Part shown: positions 25,019 through 58,211 of the stretch, in pieces | Layout: each line of letters begins with the position of its first letter | How positions within the stretch are numbered: the stretch's first letter is position 1 | NCBI GenBank assembly: GCA_951406725.2 | Contig: OX597822.1 | Span: 53,940,001-54,004,000, forward strand | Origin: Octopus vulgaris | Taxonomy: Eukaryota | Length of the DNA: 64,000 nt | Reading direction: 5' to 3' | Notes under the pieces: model-generated | Told to the model about the DNA's origin: nothing | What the model saw: only the letters and a program-made list of their open reading frames with translations | Databases searched by the model: none | Position numbers and translations under genes: made by a program

Positions 25019-25090
25019 ATATATGTATGTATGTATGTATAAAATATATGTATGTATGCGTTAAAAATGAGGTAATAGAGCAATACTTAC

Positions 25091-25711
25091 AGCAGCAAAT
25101 AAGTTCACTGAGACTATAAGACCAACATGTAGTGGAACAGATCCGATAGAGTCTTTACGGCCTTTATCAACGGCTGCCAAAATTCCAAAGATAAGCAAGA
25201 ATGTGATGAGCATTTCCACTAACATAGCTTGTAAATCGGAAACACCCGGACCAGGAGTAAGAACCCCTAAATTTCCATGCATATTTGACGGTGTAATAAT
25301 ACGTATGTATGCCGCTCCTGTAATAGAGCCGAGCATTTGACTCATAGAGTAGAATATGCAGCGGATCCAACTTATGTCACCAATTATCGCGAAAGCCAAA
25401 CTGACGGCAGGGTTAACGTGAGCACCACTTATATGGACCAAGCTTCCGATGATGATTGCAATAAAAAAGCCTGATGAAATACAAGCAAAAAGCAATCCAT
25501 TCGGTGGGGAATTCTCATTACTCATTCCAGAAGCAACTGCGAAACAAACAAGTAAAGCGACTCCAAGAAATTCCGCCAATACTGCTTGCCAAAATGTTGG
25601 TTGTTTTACATCTTCAAGTTCTCTCATCAGGAATACTTTCCAACGCCGAGCTATATAACTTTTTTTGTAGTCAAGAGGTTTTTGTCTGTCACTATCAAAA
25701 TTCTTATTCAT
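25091..25711 (-). CDS. Aquaporin (MIP family), first coding exon, copy B (TM1-TM5, 207 codons)
   Basis: ATG at 25711. Motifs FWQAVLAEFLG, HISGAHVNPAVS, SQMLGS, EMLITF. Ends ...NLFAA followed by a GTAAGT donor (25090-25085), the same position and phase as copy A. By hand count, 49 differences in 181 aligned residues and no indels. Confidence 0.95.
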
Positions 25712-25847
25712 TTTTGTTCTAAAGATTTGAAATCAATTACGGGCGTTTAAAAATTGAAATAAAATGTTATTAAAAGCTTGAAAGATTTTGTCTATCAAAT
25801 TGATAGTAATACAACAGATGGCGTTTTCTTCTCAAAATATTTTCCCA

Positions 25848-26098
25848 TTTCAAAAACAATGTTCACTTAAAAATTAGTGACTATGAAAAATGGAATATGT
25901 CACTTACTTTTCTCTTAATCGCAGATAAATATCAACACGTGGATATCTTGATAGTTTTTGCCGCTAACACATGGGATTTTATCGCTGCGACAACCTATTT
26001 ATTTACTGGCTATACGAGCTTTACAAAGCTTTAAACAGGTTTTCTTTCAGCTACTAAATAAATTTCACAGCGTCTGAGTCAAGTAGAGCTAATCAACG
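25848..26098 (-). promoter_or_regulatory. Putative promoter/5' UTR of aquaporin exon B
   Basis: tgttcactta...tatgaa...tcactt (25848-25910), tttatttactggc (25998-26010), agctaatcaacg (26087-26098). Same order and similar spacing as upstream of exon A. Confidence 0.5.
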
Positions 26099-27971
26099 TA
26101 ATTCTATTTATCTGTCTGTCTTTCTGTCTTCACACGCACACACGCACGCACTCACGCTTGCATGCATGCATGCATACACACATACATACGTACATACATA
26201 CATACATACATACGTACGTACGTACGTACGTACATATGTAGTGGCTATGGTTTAGTTTTACGTCGGGTTAGTGAAGCGATAAGCTGTAGCCGTCTACCAA
26301 ATGTTGAGTGCGGGATGCGGACAAAAGACCCTAAGGACAAAAGCTTCACGGACAAAACTTGTTGCAGTCATTAGACTGTGGCCATGCTGGGGCACCATCT
26401 TGAGGAATTTTTAGTCGAATGTATCAACCCCAGAATTTTTTAAAATGATTTTCAATCAGCACATGAAGTTAAGCCTAGAGGATCGCTCCACATGCTAGAA
26501 ATAACAGCCAAATCTCTTGAAATTTTTTTATAACCCCCTCGGTTATATTTTTTGGCTATTCTTCGATTTTTAAAAATTTTCTGAAAATCTTTTTACTTGT
26601 TTCAGTCATTGGACTACGGCCATGATGGGGCACCGCCTTGAAGGTCTCTCCACATGCTAGAAATAACAGTCATATTTTAACAATTTTTTGAATAATTTTA
26701 CGCAAACAAAAACAGAAATCGTGGTTGTAAAAGAAAAAAAAAAGAAAACTTTTATTTTCCAAAATTCCAATTTTTAAGTAAACAAAATATATTCAATCGA
26801 AAATAAATAAGTAGAATAGAATAAAAGAACACAAGACTCTTTCCTACTCAATGTAACTTATGATTGATTGATTGATTCTAGTTTCAGCTCACGAGCTGTG
26901 GCCATGCTGGGGCACCGCCATTTGTCTGAATTCTAACAAAAGGGAAAGCATTTACTTCAAGAAATGTGTCGAAACATAAAAAAACAATAAGAAGTACGTT
27001 TGAACGACTAGTGTTCGGCGCCAGACCTTCAACAGAAAGTTCAAAAGGTCAGCTCATTCTCATTACTCTGTAAGTGCTGAGAGAAGAAAACAAAAGACTT
27101 TAAATTTAAATTTTAAAATGCTAATTTTTCTACGACTACAAATTCTTCAAGGCGGTGCCCCAGCATGGCCGCATTCTAATAACGGCAACAAGAAAAAGGC
27201 GAAAAAAAAAAAAAAACAAAACGAAAAAAAAACAAGAAAAACCAAACAAACAAACAGAAAAAAATAACCGAAAAATATAACTGTAGGCAACGCTAATTGA
27301 AACATATACGCAAGCCCACAAAATATTCCTTGGTAGTCAACGACAGTTATCTCTCCTGATCGAACATTCTAGAATATTCCAGAAAATTGCAGGCGAACAT
27401 AATTAACTCTCCCTTTGCTAATTTACTACGCATAACATCAAAATAACATGCAGGAGGTCGCTGCAGCATTCCCGCTTAAATCGGTCTCTCTTCTCTAACT
27501 GCTTCTCTGAGAAGCGATCTAGAGAAAGCCAGGCACATGAATTCGATATATGATTTCCTACCAACAGCTCGCCATGGTATTCTACGTCTATTCCCTGTGA
27601 GAAGTAAATCACGTAACTTGATTTATTTCTATTTTCTCAGAATCACCATGGAACATGGCAAGTTGTTCAAAACCTTTCTTCTTCCCAGAAATCTTTATTG
27701 AACATTGTATACTCACTGTACGTGTTCATTTATCAGATGTCGGAATAAAATCTTGAACATGAAGCTATTCACACAGAATGAGTTTTATTGTCTTTTACTG
27801 CACAGAAGTATTTAATGTAAAGTATCATGGATAACCACATTGGGGAGGAGGTGTTACTGTAGCTTTATAGCCCCAAGAGATCTTCGTCTCTAGCTGGCTC
27901 TAGACACAATATCTGTGTCCTTGGAGTATTTGCAAAGGAGGCCATCCCTTCCTCGCAAGCCTGAGTGATAC

Positions 27972-41082: not shown

Positions 41083-41645
41083 TTGGGTTGCCCGGAAAGT
41101 TCTTGCCGATTTTTAAAGGAAAGGAAAAGGTCAACAAATACTTGCCATTACATTTTTAATCAACCAAATATGAACCATTTTGTTGCACAATGCATCTCCA
41201 TCTTTCCTTTAACTTGAAAATACCCTCTTCCCAGAATTGAGGTGGTTTCATGGCAAGAATTCATCAAGGTATCTTTTTACGTCATCCAAGGAATTGAAAT
41301 TTTTACCATTAAGACTTCTACAGAGACCTGAATAAGTGGAAATCCGAAGGAGCAATATCTGGTGAATATGGAGGGTAGGGTAACACATCCCAGCCGAGCT
41401 GCAGCAATTTTTGTCTGGTTCCCAAAGCATCAAGTGCAGAAATTGAACTTTCTTATCTTCCATTTTAAAGGGTTACAGAATTAACACAGGTTATAGGAAC
41501 ATAAATCTTCTTCCCCCAAAAGATAGCTTAAACTGTGCTCTAAATGGAGATGTAGTCAAATCCTATTGTATGGACTCAACCATGTTCTAAAATAAGTTGA
41601 AAGGTAAGCTACTATAAATCGGTACGAACTTTCCGGACAACCCAA
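41083..41645 (-). mobile_element. Internally deleted mariner element
   Basis: ~28-bp TIR TTGGGTTGcCCGGAAAGTTC..., TA TSD. N-terminal MEDKKVQF is fused to the C-terminal VLPYPPYSPDIAPSDFHLFRSL. Confidence 0.9.
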
Positions 41646-53028: not shown

Positions 53029-53582
53029 TTGGGTTGTCCGGAAAGTTCGTGCCGAGTTTTAAAGGAAAGAAAAAGGTCAATAAATACTTGCCATTACATT
53101 TTTAATCAACCAAATATGAACCATTTTGTTGTACAATGCGTCTCCATCTTTCCTTTAACTCGGAAATACCCTATTCCCAGAATTGAGGTGGTTTCATGGC
53201 AAAGAATTCATCAAGGTATCTTTTTACGTCATCCAAGGAATTGAAATTTTTACCATTAAGACTATTCTTCAGAGACCTGAATAAGTGGAAATCCAAAGGT
53301 GAATATGGAGGGTAGGGTAACACATCCCAGCCGAGCTGCAGCAAGTTTTGTCTGGTTCCCAAAGCATGAAGTGTCGAAAATGAACTTTCTTATCTTCCAT
53401 TTTAAAGGGTTACAGAATTAACACAGGTTATAGGAACATAAACCTTCTTACACGAAAAGATAGCTTAAACTGTGCTCTAAATGGAGATGTAGTCAAATCC
53501 TATTGTATGGACTCAACCATGTTCTAAAATAAGTCGAAAGTTAAGCTACTATAAATCGGCACGAACTTTACGGACAACCTAA
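53029..53582 (-). mobile_element. Internally deleted mariner, second copy
   Basis: Same TIRs, TA TSD and deletion junction (ggttcccaaagcat) as 41083-41645. Confidence 0.9.
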
Positions 53583-56356: not shown

Positions 56357-56410
56357 CATATATATGTATTTTTGTATAAAGAGATAATATAAGAATGGAA
56401 TGTTACTTAC

Positions 56411-57079
56411 AGCAGCAAACATGTTAAGTGATACTATAAGACCAATGTGCAGTGGAACAGATCCGATAGAATCTTTACGGCCTTTATCAACGGCTGCCAA
56501 AATTCCAAAGAGGAGCAAGAATGTAATCAACAGTTCCATTATCATAGCGTGTACATCACTAACTCCAGGTCCAGGGCCAACAACTCCGAAAGTTTGGTAC
56601 ATAGTAGACGGCGCTACAGTACGTATGACAGCCGCTCCTACAACGGCTCCGAGCATCTGAGCTAATGTGTAAAATATGCAACGGATCCAACTAATGTCAC
56701 CCACTATCGCGAATCCTAGACTGACAGCGGGGTTAACGTGACCTCCACTTATATGGCCCAAAGTACCGATGATAATAGTGATGAAAATGCCCGATTCAAT
56801 ACAAGGAAAAAGCAATCCATTCGGTGGAGCATTCTCATCGTTCATATTTGCACCAACTGCGAAACAGACGAGAAAAGCGGTTCCAAGAAATTCTGCTATT
56901 ACCGCTCGCCAAAATACTGGCTGTTTTATATCTTCAATTTCTTCCATCAGGAATCTTTTGCAATTCTCGGCTAGATGATTTGTATGTTTGTTCACTGCTG
57001 TCTGGAAATGAGATTGCTTGTCTTGTCTAAGGTTCTCAGAAGATTCGGGATCAGTCGAGGTAGCTTGATAATTATCCAT
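56411..57079 (-). CDS. Aquaporin (MIP family, AQP1/AQP4-like backbone), first coding exon, copy A (TM1-TM5, 223 codons)
   Basis: ATG at 57079. Motifs FWRAVIAEFLG, HISGGHVNPAVS (NPA1), YTLAQMLGA, ELLITF, DKGRKD. Ends ...NMFAA followed by a GTAAGT donor (56410-56405), phase 0. No stops or frameshifts. Confidence 0.95.
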
Positions 57080-57142
57080 TAAATCTCAGGCATTTGAAAT
57101 TTTGGTAAGAAAAACCAATTGTATATAAATAGTTGAATAATG

Positions 57143-57361
57143 TTTTCAAATGATTGTTCACTTTAAAAATATAATTAGATATGAAGCTTAAATATTTCAC
57201 TTGCGCTTCTTTTCTTTTCCTGTCATAAAATACGGGACGGCTGTCGTGGTTTTCCGACGTAACAGCTTTATTAACTGCCTGAACAAGTGTCACATATCTG
57301 AATAACGCCTGCTCTGAGCCTCTCAACTTCTGCTATGCATGTTTAGCGCAGCCAATCAACG
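57143..57361 (-). promoter_or_regulatory. Putative promoter/5' UTR of aquaporin exon A
   Basis: Collinear blocks shared with the region upstream of exon B: tgttcacttt...tatgaa...tcactt (57143-57210), tttattaactgcc (57267-57279, TATA-like on minus), agccaatcaacg (57350-57361, CCAAT box). Confidence 0.55.
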
Positions 57362-58211
57362 CACCGCGCAAAAAATATCAATGCTGATGTATATGTTTAT
57401 GTATGTATTTCCTTATCAAACTTCATTAAATTCAGGGCAGCTAATTACTCTTCTATTTCTCAAGGAATTAAAGAACAAACTAATAAAAAAGAAAAAAAAA
57501 ATTAATACAAAAACGACACTCCCTCCTCTCTCTCTCTCTCCACACATGTACACACAAACACACACACAAACAAATACACATATGTAAGTATAAATGTTTA
57601 CATACAATCATACACACATGTATAGAGATAAGTAAATGTGTGTGTATGCGTGCGTCTGAACATGTGTTACTGTGCGTTGTGTTAATACAATATATAAAAC
57701 ATTTAGAAAACAAAGCAATTTAGGGCGAAAAATACCCCGTTGAGAAGTGATATTTCACTAACCTAACTCTGGATTAAAGCACAAACAAAGCAATTTTTTT
57801 TATCAAATGTCAGGTATTTTCTTTGCTCCAATTTCAAATATCATTAAATTCTTATCAAAAGGCAAGTTTAGGGTTGCACAGGCCTTATGGGTTACAATGA
57901 AACCATGTTGTCTCTTTCTTTATAAGGTCTCTGCATAGACATGACAACTCCCTTTTGCTTTAAGTACCAATGTAGGCAGATTGACATTCTTAACCTTCAA
58001 GGATTTCTCTATTTAACCCTATAAATTACAGTGTTGGGTGGAGGGGCGGTTGAAGTTATCAGTGAAATGACATCACCATATCGCTGTTTCGTTTCCAAGA
58101 TGAAATGTTGAGCTACACTTACCACTATCACGAATACTTTTGGGAAAGAGATAAGCATCACAACTTCTAGTTTTCTCTCTTTAGAATATTCCAGGGTTTA
58201 GAATATTCTAA

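What the first reader, a model, noticed from the sequence alone, without database searches (positions are those of the whole stretch)
56411..56810. Non-canonical ar/R selectivity filter in an AQP4-like backbone
Seen by hand alignment to human AQP4: the TM2 aromatic position (F77, CFGLSIA) is Ser in both exons (ESGIFIT, SSGFFIA). The TM5 water-selectivity His (H201, GHLFA) is Met in A and Leu in B, preceded by Asn instead of Gly. A His appears about two turns earlier (PLHI/PLHV). Known: replacing this His in AQP4-related channels, as in insect entomoglyceroporins, widens the pore to glycerol and urea; AQP8 has Ile at this site. Inference: these may be broad-specificity channels (polyols, urea, ammonia, H2O2). 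Both filter positions lie in the variable exon, and A has a Glu next to the TM2 position where B has Ser, so exon choice could tune permeability.
Basis: partly seen in the sequence, partly recalled or inferred. Interest (0 to 1): 0.7.

Follow-up and report, generated by a model that had tools for sequence, protein, structure and literature searches.

The report
Octopus malacoaquaporin with two first exons
An octopus water-channel gene has two alternative first exons, both lacking the two ring-shaped residues that normally keep such pores water-only; it groups with a known mollusc family, so it likely passes water and hydrogen peroxide but little glycerol, and exon choice is predicted to change the pore only slightly.

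Summary
Exon A (57079-56411, minus) and its tandem copy B (25711-25091) each encode TM1-TM5 of an aquaporin, and both splice to shared exons 2-3 outside the window. The ar/R filter is Ser-Met-Gly-Arg in A and Ser-Leu-Gly-Arg in B. AlphaFold models superpose on human AQP4 at 1.1 A over 220 residues, which rules out the LLF Phe as the TM2 residue.

The filter is not new. The gene falls in the mollusc malacoaquaporin (Maqp) clade with mussel Aqpc3 (99/93). None of 43 clade rows has Phe or His at the two sites. Two papers report, second-hand, that tested Maqps pass water and H2O2 but not glycerol, so the entomoglyceroporin analogy is weak.

In a tetramer model the Glu and the upstream His face the neighbouring subunit, not the pore. 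The A/B pore differences are conservative (Met/Leu, Ile/Val, Val/Leu). Cephalopod-specific touches are Met at TM5 and His211; Octopus adds an NPC second motif. The duplicated first exon is already in RefSeq as isoforms X1/X2.

Verdict: new member of a known kind; interest modest.

The parts
56411..57079 (-). First exon A, coding part (223 codons: N-terminus, TM1-TM5, first NPA); GT donor at 56410; intron of 65,730 nt to shared exon 2. Exon 2 (81 nt; Gly229, NPC, Arg235; G000 C9:53,930,600-53,930,680) and exon 3 (TM6, C-terminus; C9:53,925,576-53,925,773) lie outside the window, beyond its first base
   Evidence: 100% identical to O. vulgaris CAI9727836.1; spliced to exon 2 in contigs of 3 of 4 runs laid
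56807..56809 (-). Phe91 (the F of LLF): start of TM2, at the subunit interface in the model, not the filter
56795..56797 (-). Glu95 (Ser in B): TM2 site -1, predicted to touch L218 and F221 of the neighbouring subunit
56792..56794 (-). Ser96: TM2 ar/R position (AQP4 F77)
56726..56734 (-). First NPA motif (N116-P117-A118)
56579..56581 (-). Val167 (Leu in B): loop C position aligned with the Asn of frog AQP1, the extended-filter site; neither His nor aromatic
   Evidence: alignment; site defined in PMC4814140
56447..56449 (-). His211 (PLHI): cytoplasmic half of TM5, predicted at the subunit interface; found only in cephalopod-clade rows (7 of 43)
56420..56425 (-). Asn219-Met220: TM5 ar/R position Met (AQP4 H201), preceded by the clade-wide Asn (41 of 43 rows)
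57080..57363 (-). Upstream region of exon A, weakly homologous to that of exon B; likely duplicated 5' UTR/promoter
   Evidence: local score 86.5, reached by 0 of 500 resampled sequences (best 85.5)
25091..25711 (-). First exon B, coding part (207 codons), 132 of 181 residues identical to A over A 43-223; GT donor at 25090; intron of 34,410 nt to shared exon 2; filter Ser80 (25474-72) and Leu204 (25102-00)
   Evidence: spliced to exon 2 in contigs of 2 of 4 runs laid
25712..26100 (-). 5' UTR of B, contiguous with its coding part in contigs (no upstream splice seen); the contigs end beside a repeat, so the start site is not fixed
   Evidence: contigs 25162-26100, 25162-26099, 25162-26042 in 3 of 4 runs

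Best explanation
This is an octopus aquaporin gene of the mollusc malacoaquaporin clade whose two duplicated first exons splice to the same last two exons and give filters Ser-Met-Gly-Arg and Ser-Leu-Gly-Arg, which likely pass water and hydrogen peroxide but little or no glycerol. Shown: exon structure, both splice junctions, filter residues, AQP4-type fold, clade. Inferred: Ser for Phe opens the TM2 side and bulky Met/Leu for His removes the water-binding imidazole without opening much space, while the two Asn motifs and the Arg keep cations out; ammonia and some urea are possible. Inferred: the two exons carry their own promoters and different N-termini, so exon choice mainly sets where and when the channel is made and perhaps how it assembles or traffics; the pore changes only conservatively. 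A keeps the ancestral cephalopod state (Glu-Ser, Asn-Met); B is derived.
For: Clade: 21 mollusc rows incl. octopus A/B and MtrAqpc31 form one side of a branch at 99/93 in a 37-row mixture-model tree; 95/98 in a 77-row tree. P0244 matches the supplement's MtrAqpc31 by eye, and that paper places Aqpc1/Aqpc3 in Maqp. Grouping 4 cephalopod rows with 3 vertebrate AQP0/1/4 rows is rejected, p-AU 2e-5. Filter: 0 of 43 clade rows have Phe at TM2 or His at TM5. Gene structure (long exon 1, 81-nt exon 2) is the mollusc classical-aquaporin pattern. Function of orthologs: abalone Maqp not glycerol-permeable; Helix Maqp passes H2O2, not glycerol (PMC8925068, PMC12771848). AQP1 H180I, a bulky aliphatic residue at this site, gained ammonia and lost most water flow (PMC4814140). 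Sidedness: in the tetramer model 91, 95, 99, 211, 218 and 221 are interface residues, while 92, 93, 96, 97, 100, 167, 212, 216, 219, 220, 229 and 235 are not listed; score 0.95, best control 0.00, runs agree in at least 95% of contacts, pLDDT at least 91; a pass by likeness to solved aquaporin tetramers, used only for which way residues face. Isoforms: RefSeq X1/X2 in O. sinensis and O. bimaculoides; junction contigs.
Against: No cephalopod protein has been assayed in anything I found. The Maqp assays are second-hand: the primary papers were not held, and the assayed Helix and abalone sequences are not in my trees. AQP4 F77A/H201A and F77A/H201G pass urea and glycerol (PMC6937295), and fish Aqp14, with a non-aromatic filter on an AQP4-related backbone, passes glycerol, urea, ammonia and H2O2 (PMC6906440). 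PMC6937295 also shows that filter residues predict selectivity poorly. Met at TM5 occurs only in cephalopod-clade rows (6 of 43), so snail and abalone results may not transfer. No pore radius could be computed, because model coordinates are not returned. A residue missing from the interface list is uncertain, not shown to be pore-lining. No tissue data show that A and B are expressed differently.
Confidence: 0.6

Rival explanations
1. Polytransporter: with both ring residues gone, the pore passes glycerol and urea as well as water, ammonia and H2O2, like vertebrate Aqp14.
For: AQP4 double mutants F77A/H201A and F77A/H201G pass urea and glycerol; Aqp14 passes five solutes with a non-aromatic filter; Ser96 and Gly229 are small, and the residue one turn above (P92 in A, Ala in B) is also small.
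Against: The mutants have Ala/Gly at TM5, not Met/Leu; F77A alone gave no solute passage; the natural orthologs tested are reported glycerol-impermeable; this genome has aquaglyceroporin-like exons, judged from their motifs (L008/L013, L009/L017, L015), so no gap needs filling as in insects.
Confidence: 0.22
2. Exon choice is a selectivity switch: A (Met, Glu95, Val167, Pro92) and B (Leu, Ser, Leu, Ala) have different solute profiles, and mixed tetramers could blend them.
For: Both variable filter sites and loop C are in the swapped exon; the A/B states are kept in two to three Octopus species, and B has fixed derived changes at 95 and 220; single changes at this site alter AQP4 selectivity (H201A glycerol, H201G urea); A and B both occur in runs X5 and X1.
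Against: The TM2 site is Ser in both; Gly and Arg are shared; Met/Leu, Ile/Val and Val/Leu are conservative; Glu95 faces the neighbour subunit; the largest differences are the non-homologous N-termini and loop C surface.
Confidence: 0.15
3. An AQP8/TIP-type aquaammoniaporin, suggested by the TM5 motif Asn-hydrophobic and Gly at LE1.
For: The TM5 and LE1 residues resemble TIP2;1 (Ile, Gly); some Mytilus orthologs are auto-named TIP; AtTIP2;1 scores Z 33.1.
Against: No His at TM2 and no aromatic/His in loop C, the two shared features of ammonia channels; exon structure is classical, not the 127-nt exon over the first NPA of mollusc AQP8; AQP4 scores higher by sequence (7e-29 vs 9e-19) and fold (Z 36.5). 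No AQP8 sequence was in my trees.
Confidence: 0.02
4. Alignment artefact: a Phe (91, 99 or 221) or His211 really fills the filter, and the channel is water-only.
For: The structural aligner printed no residue pairs; the models may echo AQP4 from training.
Against: The offset argument excludes F91 and H211; F99 and F221 are interface residues in the model; the ungapped distances to the NPA motifs and conserved G97/G213 fix the register.
Confidence: 0.01

Closest known systems
Malacoaquaporins (Maqp; Kosicka et al. 2016; mussel Aqpc1 T-V-G-R and Aqpc3 A-I-G-R; oyster Aqp4L1 A/I)
   Same: Same clade; Phe and His both lost; Asn before the TM5 site; Glu before the TM2 site as in mussel Aqpc1/3; long exon 1 plus 81-nt exon 2; frequent tandem duplication.
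   Different: Met/Leu rather than Ile/Val at TM5; His211; NPC second motif (NPS in Argonauta, NPI in some gastropod rows); duplication of exon 1 alone, used as alternative first exons on shared exons 2-3, whereas the mussel duplicates are described as whole genes or pseudogenes.
Human AQP4 (PDB 3GD8)
   Same: Closest solved structure: Z 36.5, rmsd 1.1 A, 220 residues, 40% identity; Arg kept.
   Different: F77 to Ser, H201 to Met/Leu, A210 to Gly; not an ortholog.
Entomoglyceroporins (Eglp) and malacoglyceroporins (Mglp)
   Same: AQP4-related backbone with the TM5 His replaced.
   Different: Eglps have small Ala/Ser/Val at TM5; Mglps keep the TM2 Phe and are reported from Euthyneura gastropods only; here TM2 is Ser and TM5 is bulky.
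Vertebrate Aqp14
   Same: Non-aromatic filter on an AQP4-related backbone.
   Different: Described as independently evolved from the mollusc forms (PMC8925068); proven polytransporter. No Aqp14 sequence was in my trees.
AQP8 / plant TIP aquaammoniaporins
   Same: Hydrophobic TM5 residue, Gly at LE1.
   Different: No TM2 His, no aromatic loop C residue, different exon structure.

Membership tests
Major intrinsic protein (aquaporin) | PF00230 domain, six TM helices plus two half helices, two NP-x motifs | tested here: met
   207 and 204 bits vs cut-off 25; helices; NPA and NPC
Malacoaquaporin (Maqp) | TM2 Phe of the ar/R filter replaced | tested here: met
   Ser in A and B
Malacoaquaporin (Maqp) | TM5 His of the ar/R filter replaced | tested here: met
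   Met in A, Leu in B
Malacoaquaporin (Maqp) | Falls in the mollusc clade holding named Maqps | tested here: met
   Clade with MtrAqpc31 and a McoAqpc3b1-like row, 99/93 with the chiton and 100/99 without; names. The founding Helix sequence was not retrieved.
Malacoaquaporin (Maqp) | Classical-aquaporin gene structure: long first exon, 81-nt exon with the second NPA | tested here: met
   669/621-nt coding first exons, 81-nt exon 2
Malacoaquaporin (Maqp) | Passes water and H2O2, not glycerol | not testable with these tools
   Needs an assay; reported for Helix and abalone orthologs, second-hand
Malacoglyceroporin / entomoglyceroporin | TM2 Phe retained | tested here: not met
   Ser96 / Ser80
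Malacoglyceroporin / entomoglyceroporin | Small uncharged residue (Ala, Ser, Val) at TM5 | tested here: not met
   Met / Leu
AQP8 / TIP aquaammoniaporin | His at TM2 | tested here: not met
   Ser
AQP8 / TIP aquaammoniaporin | His or aromatic residue at the loop C filter site | tested here: not met
   Val167 / Leu151 by sequence alignment
AQP8 / TIP aquaammoniaporin | Phylogenetic placement with AQP8 | not tested
   No named AQP8 protein was returned by the searches
Water-selective AQP4/AQP1 type | Phe-His-small-Arg filter | tested here: not met
   S-M-G-R and S-L-G-R
Vertebrate Aqp14 | Orthology and fifth constriction residue on TM1 | not tested
   No Aqp14 sequence in hand; no coordinates for pore analysis

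The most novel reading that the evidence does not exclude
Octopods switch the permeability of one aquaporin by promoter choice: swapping a duplicated first exon replaces five of six helices, the TM5 filter residue (Met/Leu), loop C and one face of the subunit interface (Glu95/Ser), giving two channels, or mixed tetramers, with different H2O2, ammonia or urea profiles from a single gene.
Probability: 0.17. Interest if true: 0.62.

Novelty: new member of a known kind. Interest (0 to 1): 0.27.

Why it matters
The filter is a described mollusc trait, so it does not change what is known about aquaporin selectivity. The value is narrower. It extends malacoaquaporins to cephalopods, for which my searches found no description. 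It supplies a natural matched pair: two isoforms with identical loop E, TM6 and C-terminus that differ at the TM5 filter residue. That pair tests why natural Phe/His-less mollusc channels reportedly exclude glycerol while AQP4 double mutants and Aqp14 pass it. If ammonia passes, the gene would be a candidate for cephalopod nitrogen excretion (ammonotely is recalled knowledge).

Tried and rejected
F91 at the TM2 site: rejected by the structural offset and the interface list.

His211 as a substitute filter His: rejected; it is 9 residues away and at the interface.

My own idea of an inter-subunit Glu95-His211 pair (pseudo-symmetric positions): not among the 25 listed contact pairs; E95 pairs with 218/221, H211 with 101/102/105/209.

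A/B differences enriched at the interface: no, 22 of 49 differences vs 73 of 180 positions, p=0.50.

Gene conversion at the 3' ends of A and B: synonymous differences in 4 of 30 codons vs 29 of 95, p=0.095, not shown.

Two complete tandem genes: no exon 2 or 3 copy in the window, and no third first exon in the window, 20 kb downstream or 40 kb upstream (tblastn; genome search).

Date of the duplication: Argonauta groups with A (96/85), but the exon-1-only tree leaves A, B and the unnamed sister group unresolved.

Absence of AQP8 in this genome: none of the 21 PF00230 matches showed a TM2 His, but the search is a lower bound, several matches are exons without TM2, and no AQP8 query was available; left open.

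Run search: no RNA holder listed on record; the runs are 'RNA?' by guess. X14 had no cover on exon B, which is no evidence.

Bacterial promoter scan: irrelevant to a eukaryote; ignored. One search had an off-by-one error, redone. Earlier scan notes: none found.

Full report
1. Locus. The window is G000 C9:53,940,001-54,004,000 of a 2.8-Gb genome. The flagged stretch is the 3' part of a 669-nt coding exon on the minus strand (57079-56411) whose product is 100% identical to Octopus vulgaris CAI9727836.1. A second copy, exon B, lies at 25711-25091 and is 132 of 181 residues identical to A over A 43-223. Each ends in GCT/GTAAGT at the end of TM5. No second-NPA exon is in the window. It lies 9.3 kb beyond the window start (81 nt, C9:53,930,600-680), followed by a last exon of 198 coding nt (C9:53,925,576-773).

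2. Both exons are used. Of 24 runs listed, 6 were laid in two calls. On exon 2 (4 runs), contigs of X1, X9 and X10 continue into the end of exon A; that of X5 stops after the 9 letters that A and B share, as expected at a branch; all four continue into exon 3. On exon B (4 runs), contigs of X5 and X12 continue into exon 2; X1 covers B without showing the junction; X14 has no cover. The runs are RNA by guess only, but joins across 34 and 66 kb imply spliced RNA. RefSeq lists A and B as isoforms X1 and X2 in O. sinensis (XP_029641698.1/699.1) and O. bimaculoides (XP_052826461.1/462.1). The upstream regions are weakly homologous (0 of 500 resamples reached the score, best 85.5 vs 86.5), and B's contigs run unspliced about 390 nt upstream, so separate promoters are likely (inference).

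3. The filter. HMMER aligns exon A to AQP4 with one 3-residue gap, in loop A, putting Ser96 on the Phe of CFGLSIA. AlphaFold models of A (P0002, pLDDT 86.5, 142-row alignment) and B (P0006 of O. sinensis, 98% identical to the window's exon B; pLDDT 87.8) both rank human AQP4 3GD8 first, tied within 1 Z unit with AQP2 and AQP5: Z 36.5/36.6, rmsd 1.1 A, 220 residues. All 220 model residues (54-273) pair with 32-254, so the offset lies between 22 and 19. With the gap in loop A the filter is S96, M220, G229, R235 in A and S, L, G, R in B. AQP4 numbers F77, H201, A210 and R216 are from PMC6937295. The models give no coordinates, so no pore radius was measured.

4. Which way the odd residues face. 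A four-copy model of A 44-280 scored 0.95 against a best control of 0.00; the runs agree in at least 95% of contacts; pLDDT at least 91; the alignment was not used. The mark was reached by 21 of 30 solved pairs and 0 of 23 single chains (eukaryotes: 17 of 29 and 0 of 30), and this job has four copies, unlike the calibration. Aquaporin tetramers are solved, so this is a pass by likeness; I use it only for sidedness. F91, E95, F99, H211, L218 and F221 are interface residues; E95 touches L218 and F221, and H211 touches 101, 102, 105 and 209 of a neighbour. S96, I100, I212, V216, N219 and M220 are not listed, which fits, but does not prove, pore-facing positions. The Glu and the His are therefore unlikely filter residues. 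By recalled AQP4 pore-lining positions, the A/B changes near the pore are M220L, I212V, G113A, V167L and P92A.

5. What it is. Homolog searches returned a mollusc-wide set with the same losses. In 43 rows chosen as clade members (near-duplicates and classical rows dropped; several are first-exon fragments, so their loop E columns are noise), TM2 is Ala 15, Ser 11, Thr 8, Val 5, Gly 2, Pro 1, His 1, Phe 0; TM5 is Ile 23, Val 10, Met 6, Ala 2, Leu 1, Thr 1, His 0; Asn precedes TM5 in 41; Glu precedes TM2 in 11. A 77-row tree (of about 249 proteins then held; bootstrap not fully settled) groups 28 rows at 95/98. A 37-row mixture-model tree groups 21 mollusc rows, from chiton to bivalves, gastropods and cephalopods, at 99/93; it has no true outgroup. 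The clade holds P0244, which matches MtrAqpc31 in the supplement of PMC12771848; that paper assigns Aqpc1 (T-V-G-R) and Aqpc3 (A-I-G-R) to the malacoaquaporins, defined by loss of the Phe and His. The long first exon and 81-nt second exon are the mollusc classical-aquaporin pattern, unlike AQP8. Forcing four cephalopod rows with vertebrate AQP0/1/4 is rejected (p-AU 2e-5, 24 rows). Met220 and His211 are confined to cephalopod-clade rows. A matches Argonauta and three unnamed sister proteins at E95 and M220, so B is derived.

6. How it likely works. Shown: two NP-x motifs, Arg kept, ring residues lost. From the literature: abalone and Helix orthologs are reported to pass water and H2O2 but not glycerol (primary papers not held). 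AQP1 H180I gains ammonia and loses most water flow. AQP4 F77A alone passes no solute; H201A passes glycerol, H201G urea, and the doubles both. Eglps have Ala/Ser/Val at TM5. Aqp14 passes five solutes. Inferred: bulky Met/Leu refills the TM5 side, leaving a less polar pore for water, H2O2 and perhaps ammonia, not polyols (0.6); a polytransporter is the main rival (0.22). Exon choice likely changes expression, the N-terminus and packing more than selectivity; a real selectivity switch gets 0.15-0.17.

7. Novelty. The filter type is known. Eight searches showed no paper on a cephalopod Maqp or on duplicated alternative first exons in an aquaporin; subscription journals (Kosicka 2016 and 2020, Colgan and Santos, Jia and Liu 2022) are not searched and may list octopus sequences. 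The isoforms are already annotated. Verdict: new member of a known kind, interest 0.27.

Papers seen. PMC8925068: passages, section 7, supplement list and file 8 (files 1-7 not opened). PMC12771848: passages, section 13, supplement part 1 and two searches in it. bioRxiv 10.1101/2022.07.25.501387: passages and section 16; its supplements are closed and may show cephalopod Maqps. PMC6796509, PMC4518291, PMC4814140, PMC6937295, PMC6906440, PMC8700629, PMC8976471: passages. PMC3930841: abstract. Kosicka 2016, Jia and Liu 2022, Beitz 2006: nothing, cited through other papers.

Noticed in passing
G000 C3:59,478,791-59,486,012 (L019, L034, L046): Exons 2 and 3 of a second Maqp-like gene (62% to P0087 in exon 3; loop E reads NPALN, Leu in place of the filter Arg). 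No first exon was found in 90 kb upstream; a 100-N assembly gap at 59,502,536 may hide it.
   Followed up: partly
G000 C9:53,930,600-53,930,680 (shared exon 2): The second NPA is NPC in three Octopus species, NPS in Argonauta, NPI or NPA in other clade rows; a Cys next to the filter Arg could be redox- or mercury-sensitive (speculation).
   Followed up: partly
G000 C1:93,828,671-93,829,198 (L004) vs C1:93,967,052-93,967,609 (L001): An inverted, 95% identical (734 of 769 columns) copy of the first exon of a classical Phe/Gln-type aquaporin, 138 kb away, with frame-disturbing gaps near its 3' end; another first-exon duplication in this family.
   Followed up: partly
P0230 / P0090: Sepia pharaonis has a long-branched Maqp (38-40% to the octopus isoforms) with the same S-M-G-R filter and His211 but Asn at the Glu95 site; no separate copy was found in G000.
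   Followed up: partly
P0166 (Candidula unifasciata): A Maqp-clade protein with His at the TM2 site and Thr at TM5 (H-T-S-R), an AQP8-like TM2 residue inside this clade.
   Followed up: no
G000, whole-genome PF00230 search: None of 21 matches looked like AQP8; if octopods lack it, Maqp could cover ammonia transport. The search is a lower bound.
   Followed up: partly
window 53171-53389 and 41248-41472, minus strand: Two decayed fragments with a PYPPYS(P) motif, recalled as mariner-type transposase; the first had no Pfam hit at E 0.01.
   Followed up: partly
window 56411-56510 vs 25091-25190: The loop D-TM5 stretch is more alike between A and B than the rest (4 of 30 vs 29 of 95 synonymous differences, p=0.095); gene conversion is possible but not shown.
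   Followed up: yes
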